Assembly (NCBI RefSeq): GCF_001677475.2
Contig: NZ_CP015229.1
DNA from: Escherichia coli
Lineage (GTDB): Bacteria > Pseudomonadota > Gammaproteobacteria > Enterobacterales > Enterobacteriaceae
Direction: 5' to 3' (one strand)
DNA: 64,000 nucleotides
Positions 21,001 through 27,000 of this stretch are shown one piece after another. Position numbers: made by a program. How positions within the stretch are numbered: position 1 is the first letter of the stretch; every line of letters starts with the position of its first letter.

Positions 21001-24000
21001 CTTCGGATACTCAAAAGGAAGACTGGAAAAGTGGGGCCAAAACACTGCGTGAAAGATTGAATAATTATGAGCCTTTAAAGGGCATCGTTGTGTCAACCTT
21101 TCTCCAGGGAAGTATCCGTCGTTCAACAGCCATCAAGCCATTAAATGGTAAGCGTCCGGATGTTGATATTGTCGTTGTAACCAACCTCGACCATACGCGG
21201 ACTGCCCCCATGGAGGCAATGGACCTGTTCGTTCCATTTCTTGAAAAGTATTATCCGGGGAAATGGGAGCCACAGGGTCGCTCTTTCGGGATCACCCTGT
21301 CTTATGTTGAGCTGGATCTTGTCATAACCACAATCCCGGCATCCGGGGAAGAAAAAAAAGAAATTTTACAGCTCTATTGCTCAGAGTCGGTTCTGACCGT
21401 GAACTCACTGGAAGAACAGAATGATTGGCGGCTTAACAAAAGCTGGAAACCGAATGGAGGGAGCCTGTTCGAGTCAAATGCTGTCAGCTTCCAGGATGCA
21501 CCAGCTTCTGAATGGAAAGCACACCCTTTATTACTCCCTGACAGGGATGAAAATAAGTGGGGCAGAACACATCCTCTTGCCCAGATCAGGTGGACTGCAG
21601 AGAAAAACCGAGCTTGTAACGGCCATTACATAAACCTCGTCAGGGCAGTAAAGTGGTGGAGACAACAAAATGTCGACAATTTACCTAAATACCCCAAAGG
21701 ATATCCTCTCGAACATTTGATTGGTAATGCTCTGAATGATGGTACGCCCTCTATGGCAAAAGGTCTGGTTCAGCTTATTGATACCTTCTTGATACGGTGG
21801 AAATCTTTTTATAACGAAAGAAGTAAACCGTCGCTTTCAGACCATGGTGTTGAAGAACATGACGTATTGGCGCGCTTATCAGCTGAAGACTTCTGTCTAT
21901 TTTATGAAGGATTAGCAGAGGCTGCCATCATTGCGCGCAAAGCGCTGGCATCTACTGATCCAAAAGAAAGCGGTGAACTTTGGCAGAAGCTTTTTGGCAC
22001 TAGATTCCCTTTGCCTGGCCCACAGGGTGGGGATCGTAGCGGCGGGTTTACTACGCCAACCAAGCCAGCAGAACCTCAGAAAACAGGGCGGTTCGCTTGA
22101 CTACAGTTGTACAACAGGAGCCTTATGAACTGCAGATTATCTTCGATTTAATCAATGCAGAGCCTAGAACACAATCTAGCAATGCCTGGATGTTATCAAA
22201 AGGCAAAATATGGTCGCTGAAATTCACAGCACAACTATCAGTGCCTCCTTCTCATTTTATGCCAGACTTCAGCGTCTGGCATCTTGTGCTATGGCAGGAA
22301 GGCGCTCATGTCAGGATTGAAATGTATCCCGACAAAACAGAGGGGATATCGGCTACGTTCCAGCATCAAAGCTATAACTATACAGTGGGGTCCCAACGTG
22401 CTTGGGCTACTGGAAACCCATGCCTTGAAAATACCCCTGCAGTGTTCGGACGTGACCAATGGGGAGATGAGCCTGAGGAGCTGACTGCCAGAGTTAGCTG
22501 GCGACTTAGCAGACTGTTGCACTGGATTGATGCAGCTGCGCTAGGGAATCTTGCTATCACGGGTGACCCACTGGAATTACCCGCGTTCTTTGGACAGTCT
22601 CCGTTTTCACTGCTCGGCTTCATAGAAAAGCCGGAGGATCTGGCATACTGGCAATCCCTGACAGGAAAATGGGGTTACGTAAGTAGTAGTAGTTTGCCAG
22701 GGGCTCGGGGAACACGTTTCATACGAGAGTTTTTTGATAACGATGAGAGACTGCTCCGAACATCGGAATGGTCCCCGTTCATGCGCAAAAGGACAAAGAT
22801 CAAAGACACTGTCTGGTTTATGTTACCTGCCCTCCCAGTCATAGAGCCATGGCAAGCCCCACGAACGTGGGAGGAGCTTAATCAGTGCATTGAAAACTTA
22901 GGCTTATCTCTCCAGGACCTTTTTGCTGGTATAGGTCATTCTGTAAGAAAATCCCCTCGCCGACGCAATCCCGGGATACTTATGCTCGGATTCCCGCTAC
23001 AGGACAAAGTTGGGGAAAAACCACAGCGCATTCACTGGTTGGCGCTACGATTAACAGGCATTAGCGGCAGAATGACCACACGTAATGGATTCCGCCCAAC
23101 AGAACACAATCGGAGAGCCTGGGATCGCGAACAACCATTGTCGCCGGAACCCATAAAATGGATTCGGGCACAAAATTGGGCTTCCGACCAGCTCAGAACC
23201 CGAGGCGAAGCAGGTAATGACATTAGAAGCAAAAAGATACTGATCATTGGTGCTGGTTCGCTTGGAAGCGTAATAGCGGAAAACCTGATGCGCATAGGGG
23301 TTGTGTCTCTGGGGATCCTGGACTCAGATCATATCCAAGTTGGTAATCTGAGCCGTCATGCACTGACCATGACGACAGTGGGCAATAATAAAGCCTCGGC
23401 ACTTGTTGATCATCTGAATCGCATTTTGCCAGATGCAAGAGCGCGTTCTTTTGATTGTGATTTTCCGCCGGAAAGTGAGTTTGTTAAAAGTTCACTACGT
23501 AGGTATGACGTCATTATTGATTGCACAGGAGCAGACAACGTACTTAAGGCGATGGCTGAATTTGACTGGCAAAGCGAGAAAGTCTTCGTCAGTCTGGCTA
23601 TGACATGGAGAGCAGAAGGTCTCTTCGCTTATGCGGCCAGTGAAACAACATTTCCGGTCATTGATGCTACAACCCACTTCAGAAATTCACCTTCGCCAGA
23701 AATAGACTTAAATGATGCCAGAATCGAAGGCGTAGGTTGCTGGCATCCGGTCTTTCCAGCCCGGGCAGACGACGTACATTTATGGGCTGCCATCAGTATA
23801 AAATTCATTAGCAGGGTCGTAAGCACACCAGGGAGAGTGTATGAATATTTTAAGCAAATGCCGGATGGCACTATTGAGCGACAACCCTATGAATATTGTA
23901 AGCGTAAACCGACCGCCGTATGTAGCCATTAGACAAGAATTGGTAACTTAGACGCCCATCTGACACAGACGGACATCTAAGTATGGAATTACAGGACTGG

Positions 24001-27000
24001 CGAAAAGAACCTCGTAAAAAGTATTCGAATGAATTCAAACTTCGTATGGTTGAACTGGCATCACAACCCGGTGCTTGTGTGGCTCAGATTGCACGAGAAA
24101 ATGGCGTCAATGATAATGTTATTTTCAAATGGCTCAGACTCTGGCAAAACGAAGGGCGTATATCACGGCGTCTTCCGGTGACAACCACTTCTGATGCAGG
24201 CCTTGAATTATTACCTGTAGAGATAACCTCTGATGAGCCGAAAGAACCGATGGCTGCTCTTACTCCGCCCTTATCCACTCAGACTACTGTCAGTGCCAGC
24301 TCCTGCAAGGTGGAGTTCCGTCACGGTAACATGACGCTGGAAAATCCTTCACCAGAGCTGCTCACTGTATTGATTCGTGAACTGACCGGGAGGGGAAGAT
24401 GATCTCACTCCCATCCGGTACCCGTATCTGGCTCGTTGCCGGGATAACCGATATGCGTAAGTCTTTCAACGGGCTGGGTGAACAGGTACAGCATGTGTTA
24501 AATGTTAATCCCTTCTCCGGTCACCTGTTTATCTTCCGTGGCCGACGGGGTGACACCGTTAAAATTCTTTGGGCTGATGCTGATGGTCTGTGCCTGTTCA
24601 CCAAACGCCTGGAGGAAGGCCAGTTTATCTGGCCTGCGGTGCGTGACGGTAAGGTATCCATTACCCGCTCGCAACTGGCAATGCTCCTCGATAAGCTGGA
24701 CTGGCGTCAGCCAAAAACATCCCGCCTTAACGCCCTGACAATGTTGTAAAAAACGCCTGGCCGCATTATAAAAACGGCCATGAGTCAGAAATACCTCATT
24801 CGCATTGCAGAACTGGAAAGCCAGCTCCGTCAGAAAGACCAGCAACTGAGTCTGGTTGAAGAGACGGAGGCCTTCCTGCGCTCTGCACTGGCACGTGCCG
24901 AAGAAAAGATCGAAGAAGATGAACGGGAAATAGAACATCTGCGGGCTCAGATAGAAAAACTGCGCCGGATGCTGTTCGGTACCCGTTCTGAAAAACTGCG
25001 TCGTGAAGTTGAACAGGCTGAGGCCCTGCTGAAACAACGCGAACAGGACAGCGATCGTTACAGTGGGCGGGAAGACGATCCACAGGTTCCCCGCCAGTTG
25101 CGACAGTCGCGCCATCGTCGTCCGTTACCGGCACACCTTCCCCGTGAAATACACCGTCTGGAGTCTGAAGAAAGTTGTTGCCCGGAATGTGGCGGCGAGC
25201 TGGATTATCTGGGGGAAGTCAGTACTGAGCAGCTGGAACTGGTGAGCAGCGCCCTGAAAGTGATCCGCACAGAACGGGTAAAAAAAGCCTGTACAAAATG
25301 TGACTGCATCATTGAAGCACCGGCGCCGTCCCGCCCGATAGAGCGTGGTATCGCGGGCCCCGGATTACTTGCCCGCGTGTTAACGGGAAAATACTGCGAA
25401 CACCTGCCACTGTATCGTCAGAGTGAAATCTTTGCCCGACAGGGTGTCGAACTGAGCCGTGCATTACTCTCCAACTGGGTTGACGCGTGCTGCCAGTTAA
25501 TGATGCCGCTGAATGATGCCCTGTACCGTTATGTGATGAATACCCGCAAGCTTCACACTGACGACACACCGGTAAAGGTACTGGCACCGGGCTTGAAAAA
25601 GACGAAAACAGGGCGCATCTGGACGTATGTCCGGGATGATCGCAATGCGGGTTCGTCATCTCCTCCGGCGGTCTGGTTCGCGTACTCACCGAACCGGCAG
25701 GGGAAACACCCGGAGCAACACCTCCGCCCCTTCCGGGGTATCCTGCAGGCGGATGCGTTCACAGGTTATGACAGGCTGTTCAGTGCAGAACGTGAAGGTG
25801 GTGCGCTGACAGAAGTTGCGTGCTGGGCCCATGCCCGGAGAAAAATCCACGATGTATACATCAGCAGCAAAAGTGCGACGGCAGAAGAAGCCCTGAAGCG
25901 AATCAGTGAACTGTACGCCATCGAGGATGAAATACGGGGATTACCAGAGTCAGAGCGTCTTGCAGTCAGACAGCAGCGAAGCAAAGCGTTACTGACGTCG
26001 CTGCATGAATGGATGGTGGAGAAGAATGGCACGCTGTCGAAAAAATCCAGACTGGGCGAAGCGTTCAGCTATGTACTGAATCAGTGGGACGCCCTCTGTT
26101 ATTACAGTGATGACGGACTGGCGGAGACGGACAATAACACAGCGGAAAGAGCGCTTCGTGCAGTCTGTCTTGGAAAGAAAAATTACGTGTTCTTCGGTAG
26201 CGATCACGGTGGCGAGCGTGGTGCACTGCTATACGGGCTGATCGGCACCTGCCGTCTGAACGGTATCGATCCGGAAGCGTATCTGCGCCATATTCTGAGC
26301 GTACTGCCGGAATGGCCCTCCAACCGTGTTGACGAACTCCTGCCATGGAACGTGGTTCTCACCAATAAATAAGCGTCAATACGGTGCTCCGTTGACGCTT
26401 ACTGAATATTAAGTATGTGACATTTTCCTGCGTAAGCGCAGAGTATACAGCCAATCTCAGTTCCTCTTCACTGCAGCAAATGATTGATGAATGTATCAAA
26501 GCAGGTACGAATGAAACCGGAGGTATTTTAATAGGCTCTTACAGTGAAGACGGTTCTACCGCTTTTATTGTGGAAGCCACAGCAAGGCCCGATGACTCCC
26601 TTGTCGGAAGAACGACATTTCAGCGCGGTGTAAAGGGGCTGAAATCTTTGCTCGATTCCCGCTGGAAAACAGGGCAGTACTATGTTGGTGAGTGGCATTT
26701 CCATCCAGGAGGTTCTTCAGAACCCAGCCCTGACGATTTTGTGTCAATGAAAAACATCTCATCAAATCCTAATTACCAATGTCGGGAACCTGTGATGATC
26801 ATTCTAGGTGGTGATCCGTCAGGGGCATACACTCTTTGCGCCAATGTATTCCCTCGCGGTAAACCACCTATAAGGCTCTCTCAGGAATGAGAATTATGAA
26901 GGAAAATCTTTCCTGAACCTGAAAACCGTTACCGAAAATGGCCACACGAAATTGATGTAAATTGCGGGTAAATTTTAGGCGCCACAGTAAGAATATCATT

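What the first reader, a model, noticed from the sequence alone, without database searches (positions are those of the whole stretch)
23937..26416. IS66-family element inserted between cap2 and cap3
cap2 ends at 23932 and cap3 starts at 26417, with a complete three-ORF IS66-type element between them. Both neighbouring ORFs look intact, so the insertion is intergenic, but it separates cap3 from its operon promoter. Cap3 normally reverses Cap2-mediated CD-NTase conjugation, so this strain may run CBASS with altered Cap3 dosage, or cap3 may be driven by an outward IS promoter.
Basis: inference. Interest (0 to 1): 0.6.

Follow-up and report, generated by a model that had tools for sequence, protein, structure and literature searches.

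The report
IS66 element splitting the cap2/cap3 overlap
A common jumping gene (an IS66-family insertion sequence) has recently landed in the few bases that two genes of a CBASS anti-phage operon share, adding a short tail to Cap2 and removing the start codon of Cap3; this is an ordinary insertion mutation, not a new kind of system.

Summary

**The element**
- It is a complete IS66-family element at 23898-26402 (2,505 bp).
- It has 24-nt terminal inverted repeats (GTAAGCG…CGCTTAC) and a perfect 8-bp target duplication, TGAATATT.
- It carries tnpA, tnpB and tnpC.
- A 100 % identical copy and near-identical copies sit at other sites in E. coli genomes.

**The insertion site**
- Ten IS-free copies of the same CBASS locus define the empty site. 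One lies on the Salmonella plasmid NZ_CP039559.1; the other nine are public assembly contigs.
- In the empty site cap2 and cap3 overlap as ATGAATATTAA.
- The IS destroys the cap2 stop codon, so Cap2 grows from 600 to 611 aa.
- It changes the conserved cap3 ATG to CTG and cuts cap3 off from every upstream start, from the one strong ribosome-binding site and from translational coupling to cap2.
- What remains is a 157-aa ORF starting at GTG 26417, with no ribosome-binding site, directly after a stable hairpin.

**Likely consequence**
- Cap3 is probably strongly reduced or lost (inferred).
- Defence is probably retained, with more conjugated cyclase.
- The system is a close homologue of the Enterobacter cloacae CdnD/Cap2/Cap3/Cap4 system.
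- No outward IS promoter was found.

Novelty is low. The allele is a natural cap3 knock-down, found in only one other (draft) assembly.

The parts
19444..20949 (+). cap4: SAVED + PD-DExK-type endonuclease effector, first gene of the CBASS operon. The ORF is open from GTG 19402; the RefSeq start is ATG 19444.
   Evidence: PADLOC SAVED_PDDEXK/Effector endonuclease, E about 1e-195. NCBIfam SAVED. PDB 7YIB 'CD-NTase-associated protein 4', E 3e-182. Identical to the IS-free copies.
20955..22100 (+). cdnD-type CD-NTase (381 aa), ending ...GRFA.
   Evidence: PADLOC cyclase 1.5e-160. PDB 7LJM, 7LJL and 7TO3_C 'cyclic AMP-AMP-GMP synthase', E down to 1e-227. The C-terminal Ala fits the Gly/Ala rule for Cap2 substrates (PMC10097602).
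22097..23932 (+). cap2 (E1-E2 fusion) as it now reads: 600 native residues plus an 11-residue tail, CKRKPTAVCSH, encoded by the IS left end (23897-23929), with a new stop TAG at 23930-23932.
   Evidence: PADLOC E1-E2 3e-241. PDB 7TO3_A Cap2 (600 aa) aligns end to end and stops at ...EY. The IS-free allele ends ...QPYEY*.
23841..23897 (+). Orphaned 5' end of cap3: codons 1-19 of the annotated 178-aa protein. It holds all three candidate ATG starts (23841, 23865, 23889) and the strong Shine-Dalgarno site GGGAGAG. It now reads into the IS as a 36-aa peptide ending at 23951.
   Evidence: RefSeq annotation of the IS-free allele. Translation. Anti-SD duplex energies.
23890..23897 (.). Left copy of the 8-bp target-site duplication TGAATATT.
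   Evidence: The sequence is single-copy in the empty site.
23898..26402 (+). IS66-family insertion sequence, 2,505 bp, in the same orientation as the operon.
   Evidence: Full-length copies at 99.4-100 % identity lie at unrelated sites in E. coli genomes and plasmids.
23898..23921 (+). Left terminal inverted repeat, GTAAGCGTAAACCGACCGCCGTAT.
   Evidence: the repeat finder I1: 24 nt, 83 % complementary.
23983..24402 (+). tnpA (139 aa), IS66 accessory protein.
   Evidence: NCBIfam NF047595, 81.2 bits against a cutoff of 74.
24399..24749 (+). tnpB (116 aa), IS66 accessory protein. It overlaps tnpA by 4 nt (24399-24402).
   Evidence: NCBIfam NF033819, 119.4 bits against a cutoff of 50. Coordinates.
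24780..26372 (+). tnpC (530 aa), IS66-family DDE transposase, contains ...CWAHARRK...
   Evidence: NCBIfam NF033517, 447.6 bits against a cutoff of 180. Translation.
26379..26402 (+). Right terminal inverted repeat, ...GTTGACGCTTAC. Together with 26370-26378 it forms a stable hairpin at 26370-26401.
   Evidence: RNA fold: -20 kcal/mol for the whole 81-nt stretch 26360-26440.
26403..26410 (.). Right copy of the target-site duplication TGAATATT. The base before it is now C (IS end) instead of A, so the conserved cap3 start ATG reads CTG (26402-26404).
26411..26890 (+). Body of cap3 (JAB/MPN isopeptidase). The longest remaining ORF starts at GTG 26417 (157 aa). The catalytic residues are retained (E in NETGG, HFHPGGSSEPSPDD).
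   Evidence: PADLOC JAB 5e-77. Alignment A1. In-frame stop TGA at 26393. The AlphaFold model has its folded core from residue 21.

Best explanation
**What is there.** A mobile IS66-family element (2,505 bp, all three genes intact) recently transposed into the short stretch where cap2 and cap3 overlap. The operon is a type II CBASS: cap4-cdnD-cap2-cap3, a close homologue of the Enterobacter cloacae CdnD system. It sits on a Tn7-like island.

**Shown from the sequence**
- The native junction reads ...CCT ATG AAT ATT AAG TAT GTG... Cap2 stops at TAA. The conserved cap3 ATG lies 8 nt upstream of that stop.
- The IS entered after ...TGAATATT and duplicated those 8 bp.
- Cap2 loses its stop codon and gains 11 IS-encoded residues (600 to 611 aa).
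- The body of cap3 now lies 2.5 kb away from all three candidate ATG starts and from the strong Shine-Dalgarno site.
- At the right junction the conserved start reads CTG. The next start is GTG 26417, with essentially no Shine-Dalgarno pairing, 15 nt after a stable hairpin formed by the IS end.

**Inferred**
- The cap3 body is probably still transcribed by read-through from the operon and IS promoters, because the orientation is the same and no terminator is evident.
- It is translated poorly or not at all, so Cap3 isopeptidase is strongly reduced or lost.
- By analogy with published cap3 mutants, the cyclase should accumulate in its Cap2-conjugated ('primed') form. Defence against most phages should persist, provided the 11-residue tail does not harm Cap2.
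For: **IS anatomy:**

**Mobility and exact ends:**
- The element has a 100 % identical copy inside traD of an E. coli plasmid, flanked by CATGATAT.
- A 99.8 % copy is flanked by TTTTTGAT.

**Empty site:**
- Five Salmonella IncHI1B plasmids match both flanks at 100 % without the IS.
- Nine further assemblies also lack it.

**Native Cap2 end:** the E. cloacae Cap2 structure 7TO3_A is 600 aa and aligns to the last native residue.

**Native cap3 start:**
- RefSeq annotates 178 aa from ATG 23841.
- Many homologues at 65-85 % identity share that N-terminus. Others, and the more distant ones, start at the M17 equivalent.
- In a 73 %-identical locus the M1 frame is closed, but the ATGAATATTAA overlap is kept.
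- Ledvina et al. removed the first 16 annotated residues of E. cloacae Cap3 as not a true start (10.1101/2022.03.31.486616).

**Translation signals:** anti-SD duplex energy is -8.6 kcal/mol for ATG 23841, -2.1 for ATG 23889, -3.0 for CTG 26402 and -0.9 for GTG 26417. The hairpin is at 26370-26401. An in-frame stop at 26393 rules out a fusion with IS ORFs.

**Truncated product could still fold:** residues 1-20 of native Cap3 have pLDDT about 50 and the core starts at residue 21. The catalytic residues are retained.

**The insertion is real and recent:**
- The draft assembly GCA_002516285.1 has both junctions on two contigs that break inside the IS and are identical to the window.
- cap4, cdnD and cap2 residues 1-600 are identical to the IS-free alleles.

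**Phenotype analogy:**
- Cap3 inactivation increases cyclase conjugation (PMC10097602).
- Cap3 is dispensable for defence and antagonises priming (10.1101/2022.03.31.486616).
- A cap3 deletion gives a subtle phenotype (PMC11153139).
Against: - No expression data exist.
- GTG 26417, or rarely CTG 26402, could still give some Cap3. Initiation at CTG would even recreate the native 162-aa protein. Cap3 is an enzyme, so low amounts may be enough.
- The effect of the 11-residue tail on Cap2 is unknown. If it inactivates Cap2, the phenotype would be cap2-null (loss of defence against many phages) rather than cap3-null.
- In E. coli TW11681, Cap3 was needed for defence against some phages and for T4-induced cGAMP (PMC10097602). 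'Defence retained' is therefore not general.
- Which ATG is the true native start is not settled.
Confidence: 0.75

Rival explanations
1. The IS is intergenic, cap2 and cap3 are both intact, and the only effect is transcriptional: cap3 is cut off from the operon promoter or driven by an outward IS promoter.
For: In the window alone, the ORF listing shows an uninterrupted 611-aa cap2 ORF and a 157-aa cap3 ORF on either side of the three IS genes.
Against: - The IS ends, the target duplication and the empty-site alleles place the insertion inside both reading frames.
- No outward promoter reaching 9 of 12 consensus matches lies in the IS right end.
- The -35-like TTGACG in the right repeat lacks a -10 at 16-18 nt, and a transcript from it would start after GTG 26417.
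Confidence: 0.04
2. Hypomorph with enough function. Read-through mRNA is translated from GTG 26417 or CTG 26402 at a level that still keeps CdnD deconjugation near normal, so the insertion is nearly neutral.
For: - Same orientation as the operon and no convincing terminator in the IS.
- The 157-aa ORF keeps the whole predicted fold from strand 1 and all catalytic residues.
- Characterised Cap3 proteins of similar size are active: 156 aa in E. coli TW11681.
Against: - No Shine-Dalgarno pairing: -0.9 kcal/mol, against -8.6 at the annotated native start.
- Translational coupling to cap2 is lost.
- A stable hairpin sits directly upstream.
- GTG and CTG are weaker initiators than ATG (own knowledge).
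Confidence: 0.15
3. The whole CBASS system is functionally dead. The IS-encoded tail, or polarity, disables Cap2, so the insertion is one step in the decay of a costly abortive-infection operon.
For: - The same operon carries independent disabling lesions in other assemblies: an IS3-family insertion in cap4 (L017) and a +A frameshift in cap4 (L016).
- Cap2 is required for defence (10.1101/2022.03.31.486616).
Against: - All 600 native Cap2 residues are unchanged. The tail is only added after the last residue, and it follows the natural end of the solved E. cloacae protein.
- cap4 and cdnD are intact and identical to the IS-free alleles.
Confidence: 0.1
4. Assembly artefact: a multi-copy IS was placed here wrongly.
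For: IS elements are a common cause of misassembly. The draft assembly breaks at this element.
Against: - Both junctions are read independently in the draft contigs. They run 63 nt and 62 nt into the IS (contig ends map to 23960 and 26341).
- The target duplication is perfect, which is what real transposition leaves.
Confidence: 0.01

Closest known systems
IS66-family insertion sequences of Enterobacteriaceae (the ISEc8/IS679-type three-gene elements; RefSeq products WP_000422696.1 TnpA, WP_000624677.1 TnpB, WP_000080223.1 TnpC)
   Same: - Same gene order tnpA-tnpB-tnpC, with a tnpA/tnpB 4-nt overlap.
- Same GTAAGCG...CGCTTAC ends and 8-bp target duplication.
- One copy is 100 % identical over all 2,505 bp, on an E. 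coli plasmid.
   Different: Nothing in the element itself; only the insertion site is particular. The exact ISfinder name could not be determined with these tools.
Enterobacter cloacae type II CBASS (CdnD / Cap2 / Cap3 / Cap4; PDB 7TO3, 7TQD, 7LJL, 7YIB)
   Same: - Same four genes.
- Cap2 aligns over all 600 residues (E 2e-296).
- The cyclase matches at E about 1e-216 and ends in Phe-Ala.
- Cap4 matches at E about 1e-182.
- Cap3 likewise has a doubtful 16-residue annotated N-terminal extension.
   Different: Here cap3 is cut from its start codon by the IS and Cap2 carries an 11-residue foreign tail. No solved Cap3 relative was found by sequence.
Engineered cap3 deletions or catalytic mutants in V. 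cholerae, E. coli TW11681, E. cloacae and B. cereus CBASS
   Same: The expected outcome is loss or reduction of the isopeptidase that reverses Cap2-mediated cyclase conjugation (PMC10097602; 10.1101/2022.03.31.486616; PMC11153139).
   Different: This is a natural allele. It may be leaky, and it changes the Cap2 C-terminus at the same time.

Membership tests
IS66 family insertion sequence | Three genes in the order tnpA, tnpB, tnpC, with tnpC a DDE transposase of the IS66 type | tested here: met
   NCBIfam NF047595 (81.2 bits, cutoff 74), NF033819 (119.4, cutoff 50) and NF033517 (447.6, cutoff 180) for the ORFs at 23983-24402, 24399-24749 and 24780-26372.
IS66 family insertion sequence | tnpB start overlapping the tnpA stop (4-nt overlap; family feature from own knowledge, Han et al. 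2001) | tested here: met
   tnpA ends at 24402 and tnpB starts at 24399.
IS66 family insertion sequence | Imperfect terminal inverted repeats of about 20-30 bp beginning 5'-GTAA | tested here: met
   24-nt arms at 23898-23921 and 26379-26402, 83 % complementary, GTAAGCG.../...CGCTTAC. The same ends occur in three other copies.
IS66 family insertion sequence | 8-bp target-site duplication (PMC6778807, citing Machida 1984) | tested here: met
   TGAATATT on both sides and single-copy in the empty site. CATGATAT and TTTTTGAT flank other copies.
IS66 family insertion sequence | Evidence of mobility: the same element at unrelated loci | tested here: met
   3,331 E. coli records hold a place covering at least 80 % of the element. 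The best copies, at 99.4-100 % identity, lie in traD, next to traT, and in chromosomes.
Type II CBASS (Cap2/Cap3-regulated) | CD-NTase cyclase | tested here: met
   PADLOC cyclase 1.5e-160. PDB cyclic AMP-AMP-GMP synthase, E down to 1e-227.
Type II CBASS (Cap2/Cap3-regulated) | Cap2 E1-E2 fusion | tested here: met
   PADLOC E1-E2 3e-241. 7TO3_A Cap2, E 2e-296. The 600 native residues are intact, with an 11-residue IS-encoded tail added.
Type II CBASS (Cap2/Cap3-regulated) | Intact cap3 (JAB isopeptidase) gene | tested here: not met
   The JAB domain and its catalytic residues are present. The gene is cut from all native ATG starts, and the conserved ATG reads CTG. The locus is a type II CBASS with a disrupted cap3.
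Type II CBASS (Cap2/Cap3-regulated) | Cyclase C-terminal residue Gly or Ala (PMC10097602) | tested here: met
   The cyclase ends ...TGRFA.
Type II CBASS (Cap2/Cap3-regulated) | Nucleotide-activated effector | tested here: met
   Cap4-type SAVED + nuclease.
Type II CBASS (Cap2/Cap3-regulated) | Anti-phage activity and cyclase conjugation in this strain | not testable with these tools
   Needs phage assays and immunoblots.

The most novel reading that the evidence does not exclude
The insertion may be an adaptive re-tuning of CBASS rather than plain damage. Loss of Cap3 would leave the cyclase permanently conjugated ('primed'). The single private substitution in the lineage could be a second, compensating change in operon expression: T to C at 19300, in the only non-coding stretch upstream of cap4, where all ten IS-free copies have T. 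In that case the strain would be a natural two-step experiment on how much deconjugation a type II CBASS needs.
Probability: 0.08. Interest if true: 0.45.

Novelty: already known. Interest (0 to 1): 0.2.

Why it matters
It matters little for discovery, because both the IS and the defence system are known kinds.

**Annotation.** The 611-aa 'Cap2' and the 157-aa 'Cap3' called in this strain are insertion artefacts, not natural variants. The case also shows that an IS landing in an overlapping stop/start junction can look intergenic when only ORFs are read.

**Biology.** The strain, and the matching draft assembly GCA_002516285.1, offer a natural cap3 knock-down of the well-studied E. cloacae-type CdnD system. 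IS-free isogenic alleles on Salmonella plasmids are available as controls.

**Context.** Together with the cap4 lesions seen in other assemblies, the insertion adds to the picture that this transposon-borne CBASS is repeatedly hit by mutations.

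Tried and rejected
- **Empty site in E. coli complete genomes:** a reconstructed empty-site query (1,188 bp) found nothing. The locus was found in the plasmid collection instead.
- **Solved Cap3 structures:** a sequence search with native Cap3 gave no hit at E up to 0.01. I used an AlphaFold model instead and ran no fold search, because the family assignment was not in doubt.
- **Outward IS promoter:** the consensus scan and my own looser scan found no site with at least 9 of 12 matches reading out of the right end. I rejected this idea.
- **Terminator in the IS:** only one weak terminator-like site (24544-24560). The total number of sites is below the shuffle expectation (6 found, 7.9 expected). 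This is not evidence of termination.
- **Fusion of cap3 to an IS ORF:** excluded by the in-frame TGA at 26393.
- **Other copies of the IS in the window:** none. Only a 3-mismatch repeat-like 24-mer at 7732-7755.
- **Literature on IS or transposon insertions in cap3:** none found.
- **Han et al. 2001 on IS679/IS66 (PMC95320):** not held. Family features other than the 8-bp duplication therefore rest on my own knowledge.
- **ISfinder name of the element:** not determinable here.
- **Role of the 19300 substitution:** the best promoter-like site upstream of cap4 is TTGAGG-17-TAATAT at 19243-19271, 8 of 12 matches. It is unchanged by the substitution, so no mechanism can be assigned.

Full report
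**1. What is at the coordinates**

ORF listing shows three same-strand ORFs between a 611-aa and a 157-aa ORF: 23983-24402 (139 aa), 24399-24749 (116 aa) and 24780-26372 (530 aa).
- All three pass the curated NCBIfam cut-offs for IS66 TnpA, TnpB and TnpC.
- The flanking ORFs and the two genes upstream are a type II CBASS. In order they are a SAVED/PD-DExK nuclease effector (Cap4), a CD-NTase, an E1-E2 fusion (Cap2) and a JAB protein (Cap3).
- Sequence searches against solved structures show a close relative of the Enterobacter cloacae CdnD system. Cap2 matches 7TO3_A over residues 2-599 (E 2e-296). The cyclase matches 7LJM, 7LJL and 7TO3_C ('cyclic AMP-AMP-GMP synthase'). The effector matches 7YIB, Cap4.

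**2. True boundaries of the element**

- A 24-nt inverted repeat pairs 23898-23921 (GTAAGCGTAAACCGACCGCCGTAT) with 26379-26402.
- Directly outside these arms, the 8-mer TGAATATT occurs on both sides, at 23890-23897 and 26403-26410.
- The element is thus 23898-26402 (2,505 bp). The finding's 23937-26416 is wrong.
- A search with exactly this 2,505-bp stretch finds full-length copies in thousands of E. coli records.
- One copy is 100 % identical and interrupts traD on a plasmid. A 99.8 % copy lies beside traT. Both have the same ends and their own 8-bp duplications, CATGATAT and TTTTTGAT.
- An 8-bp duplication is the reported hallmark of IS66 (PMC6778807).
- The window holds only this one copy.

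**3. The empty site**

- Five Salmonella enterica IncHI1B plasmids match both flanks at 100 % with the 2,505 bp plus one copy of the 8-mer missing. I fetched NZ_CP039559.1 as L001.
- There the junction reads ...CAACCCTATGAATATTAAGTATGTGACA....
- RefSeq annotates cap2 as 600 aa ending ...QPYEY*. It annotates cap3 as 178 aa starting 59 nt upstream of the cap2 stop.
- Nine further IS-free copies from public assemblies agree.
- The E. cloacae Cap2 structure is also 600 residues long and aligns to the very last native residue.

**4. What the insertion did to the two genes**

Cap2:
- The IS entered between the T and the AA of the cap2 stop codon.
- cap2 now reads on into the left repeat for 11 codons (CKRKPTAVCSH) to a TAG at 23930-23932.

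Cap3:
- All three possible ATG starts (23841, 23865, 23889) lie left of the IS.
- The 8-bp duplication re-creates codons 2-3 of the shortest form at the right junction. The base before it is now the last C of the IS, so that start reads CTG (26402-26404).
- An in-frame TGA at 26393 prevents any fusion to IS reading frames.
- The orphaned 5' piece now encodes a 36-aa peptide ending at 23951.

**5. Which start is native**

- ATG 23841 has a strong Shine-Dalgarno site (GGGAGAG; duplex -8.6 kcal/mol). Its N-terminus, MNILS.C..., is shared by many homologues of 178-180 aa at 65-85 % identity.
- That stretch is also cap2 coding sequence, so its conservation is not independent evidence.
- More distant homologues, and several gene calls, begin at the equivalent of M17.
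- In a 73 %-identical locus (L004) the upstream frame is closed by a stop and the M1 ATG is absent. The ATGAATATTAA overlap is nevertheless kept exactly.
- I therefore take ATG 23889 as the conserved start, translationally coupled to the cap2 stop 8 nt downstream. ATG 23841 is a possible additional start.
- Either way the IS removes it.

**6. What is left of cap3**

- The longest ORF starts at GTG 26417 (157 aa). Its upstream 20 nt pair with the anti-Shine-Dalgarno sequence at only -0.9 kcal/mol.
- The IS right end folds into a stable hairpin at 26370-26401, directly before CTG 26402 and 15 nt before the GTG.
- The protein itself would probably be viable:
  - In an AlphaFold model (mean pLDDT 87) residues 1-20 are low-confidence and the first strand is residues 21-25.
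  - The invariant E-T-G-G and H-x-H...S..D residues are all in the remnant.
- My inference is that Cap3 is strongly reduced or absent, but not necessarily zero.

**7. Transcription**

- The IS genes run in the same direction as the operon.
- The consensus scan finds no outward promoter in the IS. It finds only one weak terminator-like site, and the number of such sites is below the shuffle expectation.
- A looser scan of the right end gives nothing upstream of the GTG.
- The right repeat contains TTGACG (26392-26397), a good -35. The hexamers 16-18 nt downstream (TATGTG, ATGTGA, TGTGAC) are poor -10 elements, and a transcript from there would begin after the GTG.
- Read-through transcription is therefore the likely source of any cap3 mRNA. 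This is inference.

**8. Is it real and how old**

- The extended Cap2 and the truncated Cap3 are each on record in just one other assembly, GCA_002516285.1. They lie on two contigs that end inside the IS, mapping to window 23960 and 26341, and are otherwise identical to the window. That is the usual picture of a multi-copy IS in a short-read draft.
- cap4, cdnD and the 600 native codons of cap2 are identical to the IS-free alleles.
- The insertion is real, recent and private to one lineage.

**9. Expected consequence, from the literature**

- Inactivating Cap3 increases cyclase conjugation in four tested systems, including E. cloacae (PMC10097602).
- Cap3 is dispensable for defence in the V. 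cholerae system, and its overexpression abolishes defence (10.1101/2022.03.31.486616).
- A cap3 deletion gives a subtle phenotype in the B. cereus system (PMC11153139).
- Cap3 was, however, needed against some phages in E. coli TW11681.
- I predict a CBASS that still works with more conjugated CdnD, unless the Cap2 tail is harmful.

**10. Context**

- The operon lies in a 32-kb Tn7-like transposon at 6290-38424, with a 5-bp duplication GCAAT. The empty site is present in an E. coli chromosome.
- In other assemblies the same operon carries independent lesions in cap4.
- Across 5.4 kb, the only substitution separating the IS-bearing lineage from ten IS-free copies is T to C at 19300, upstream of cap4. 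Its meaning is unknown.

**11. Verdict**

The feature is a real but ordinary IS insertion. Novelty: already known kinds. Interest is low. The allele is mainly useful as an annotation caveat and as a natural cap3 knock-down.

Noticed in passing
window 6290-38424 (ends), 6285-6289 and 38425-38429 (duplication), 32273-38278 (-) (tns-like genes): The whole CBASS region is cargo of a 32,135-bp Tn7-like transposon.
- Its ends are TGTGTAGAACCAATAAAGTTGT... and, on the reverse complement, TGTTCAAAAACAATAAAGTTGT...
- It has a 5-bp target duplication, GCAAT.
- Four tns-like ORFs lie at the right end. Homologues are annotated TnsD/TniQ and TniB/AAA.
- It is inserted at the 3' end of a yhiN-like FAD enzyme gene (38409-39611).
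- The uninterrupted site is present in E. coli CP134663.1.
- The same island also sits on Salmonella IncHI1B plasmids.
   Followed up: partly
window 19089-19190: A second, internal copy of the Tn7-like left end (about 92 % identical to 6290-6390) lies just upstream of cap4. The island therefore looks composite or nested, and the CBASS operon starts about 350 bp inside an inner left end.
   Followed up: partly
window 19300: T to C substitution 144 nt upstream of the cap4 ATG.
- It is the only base difference from ten IS-free copies over the 5.4-kb CBASS region; all ten have T.
- It does not touch the best promoter-like site, TTGAGG-17-TAATAT at 19243-19271.
- It could be a compensating regulatory change or a neutral one.
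   Followed up: partly
L017 (about window 20409-20412 equivalent) and L016 (window 20395 equivalent): The same CBASS operon has independent lesions in other public assemblies.
- L017 has an IS3-family insertion splitting cap4.
- L016 has a +A frameshift in cap4, seen in 3 samples.
- L014 has many single-base indels that look like long-read errors.
   Followed up: partly
window 23840-23849 and 23888-23897: The 10-mer TATGAATATT occurs twice, 48 nt apart, so both candidate cap3 starts read Met-Asn-Ile. The first copy is followed by TTAAGC, which resembles the IS junction TATGAATATT|GTAAGC (family D8). The IS used the second copy. Probably coincidence.
   Followed up: no
window 18434-19039 (-), 18885-18887; L001 6275-7584: An IS3/IS481-type integrase-core remnant lies upstream of the inner Tn7-like end. 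In the Salmonella plasmids an extra IS3-family element of about 1.3 kb is inserted there, with a 3-bp overlap at 18885-18887. It is absent from the window.
   Followed up: no
window 28567-29667 (-): Broken IS256-family (Transposase_mut) transposase in several frames: a decayed IS downstream of cap3.
   Followed up: no
window 6444-7148 (-) and 7732-7755 (-): An IS3-family transposase fragment (NCBIfam NF033516) lies near the outer left end of the island. A 24-mer resembling the IS66 left repeat (3 mismatches; none expected by chance) lies nearby and may be a relic of another IS66-family element.
   Followed up: no
window 7835-8386 (+), 11805-16740 (+): Other island cargo: a tyrosine-type DNA invertase, and a heptosyltransferase plus a TibA-type autotransporter adhesin (annotation of the homologous plasmid region).
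   Followed up: no
window 50089-50173, 50324-50407 (+); 60561-60592 (-): Rfam hits above gathering score in the chromosomal flank: two AgrB antisense RNAs and the shuA/chuA 5'-UTR thermoregulator. The chromosomal flanks are about 95-98 % identical to E. coli chromosomes.
   Followed up: no
window 26392-26397: The IS right repeat carries a near-consensus -35 hexamer (TTGACG) 5 nt from the IS tip. This kind of element could create hybrid promoters at other insertion sites. At this site no matching -10 follows.
   Followed up: partly
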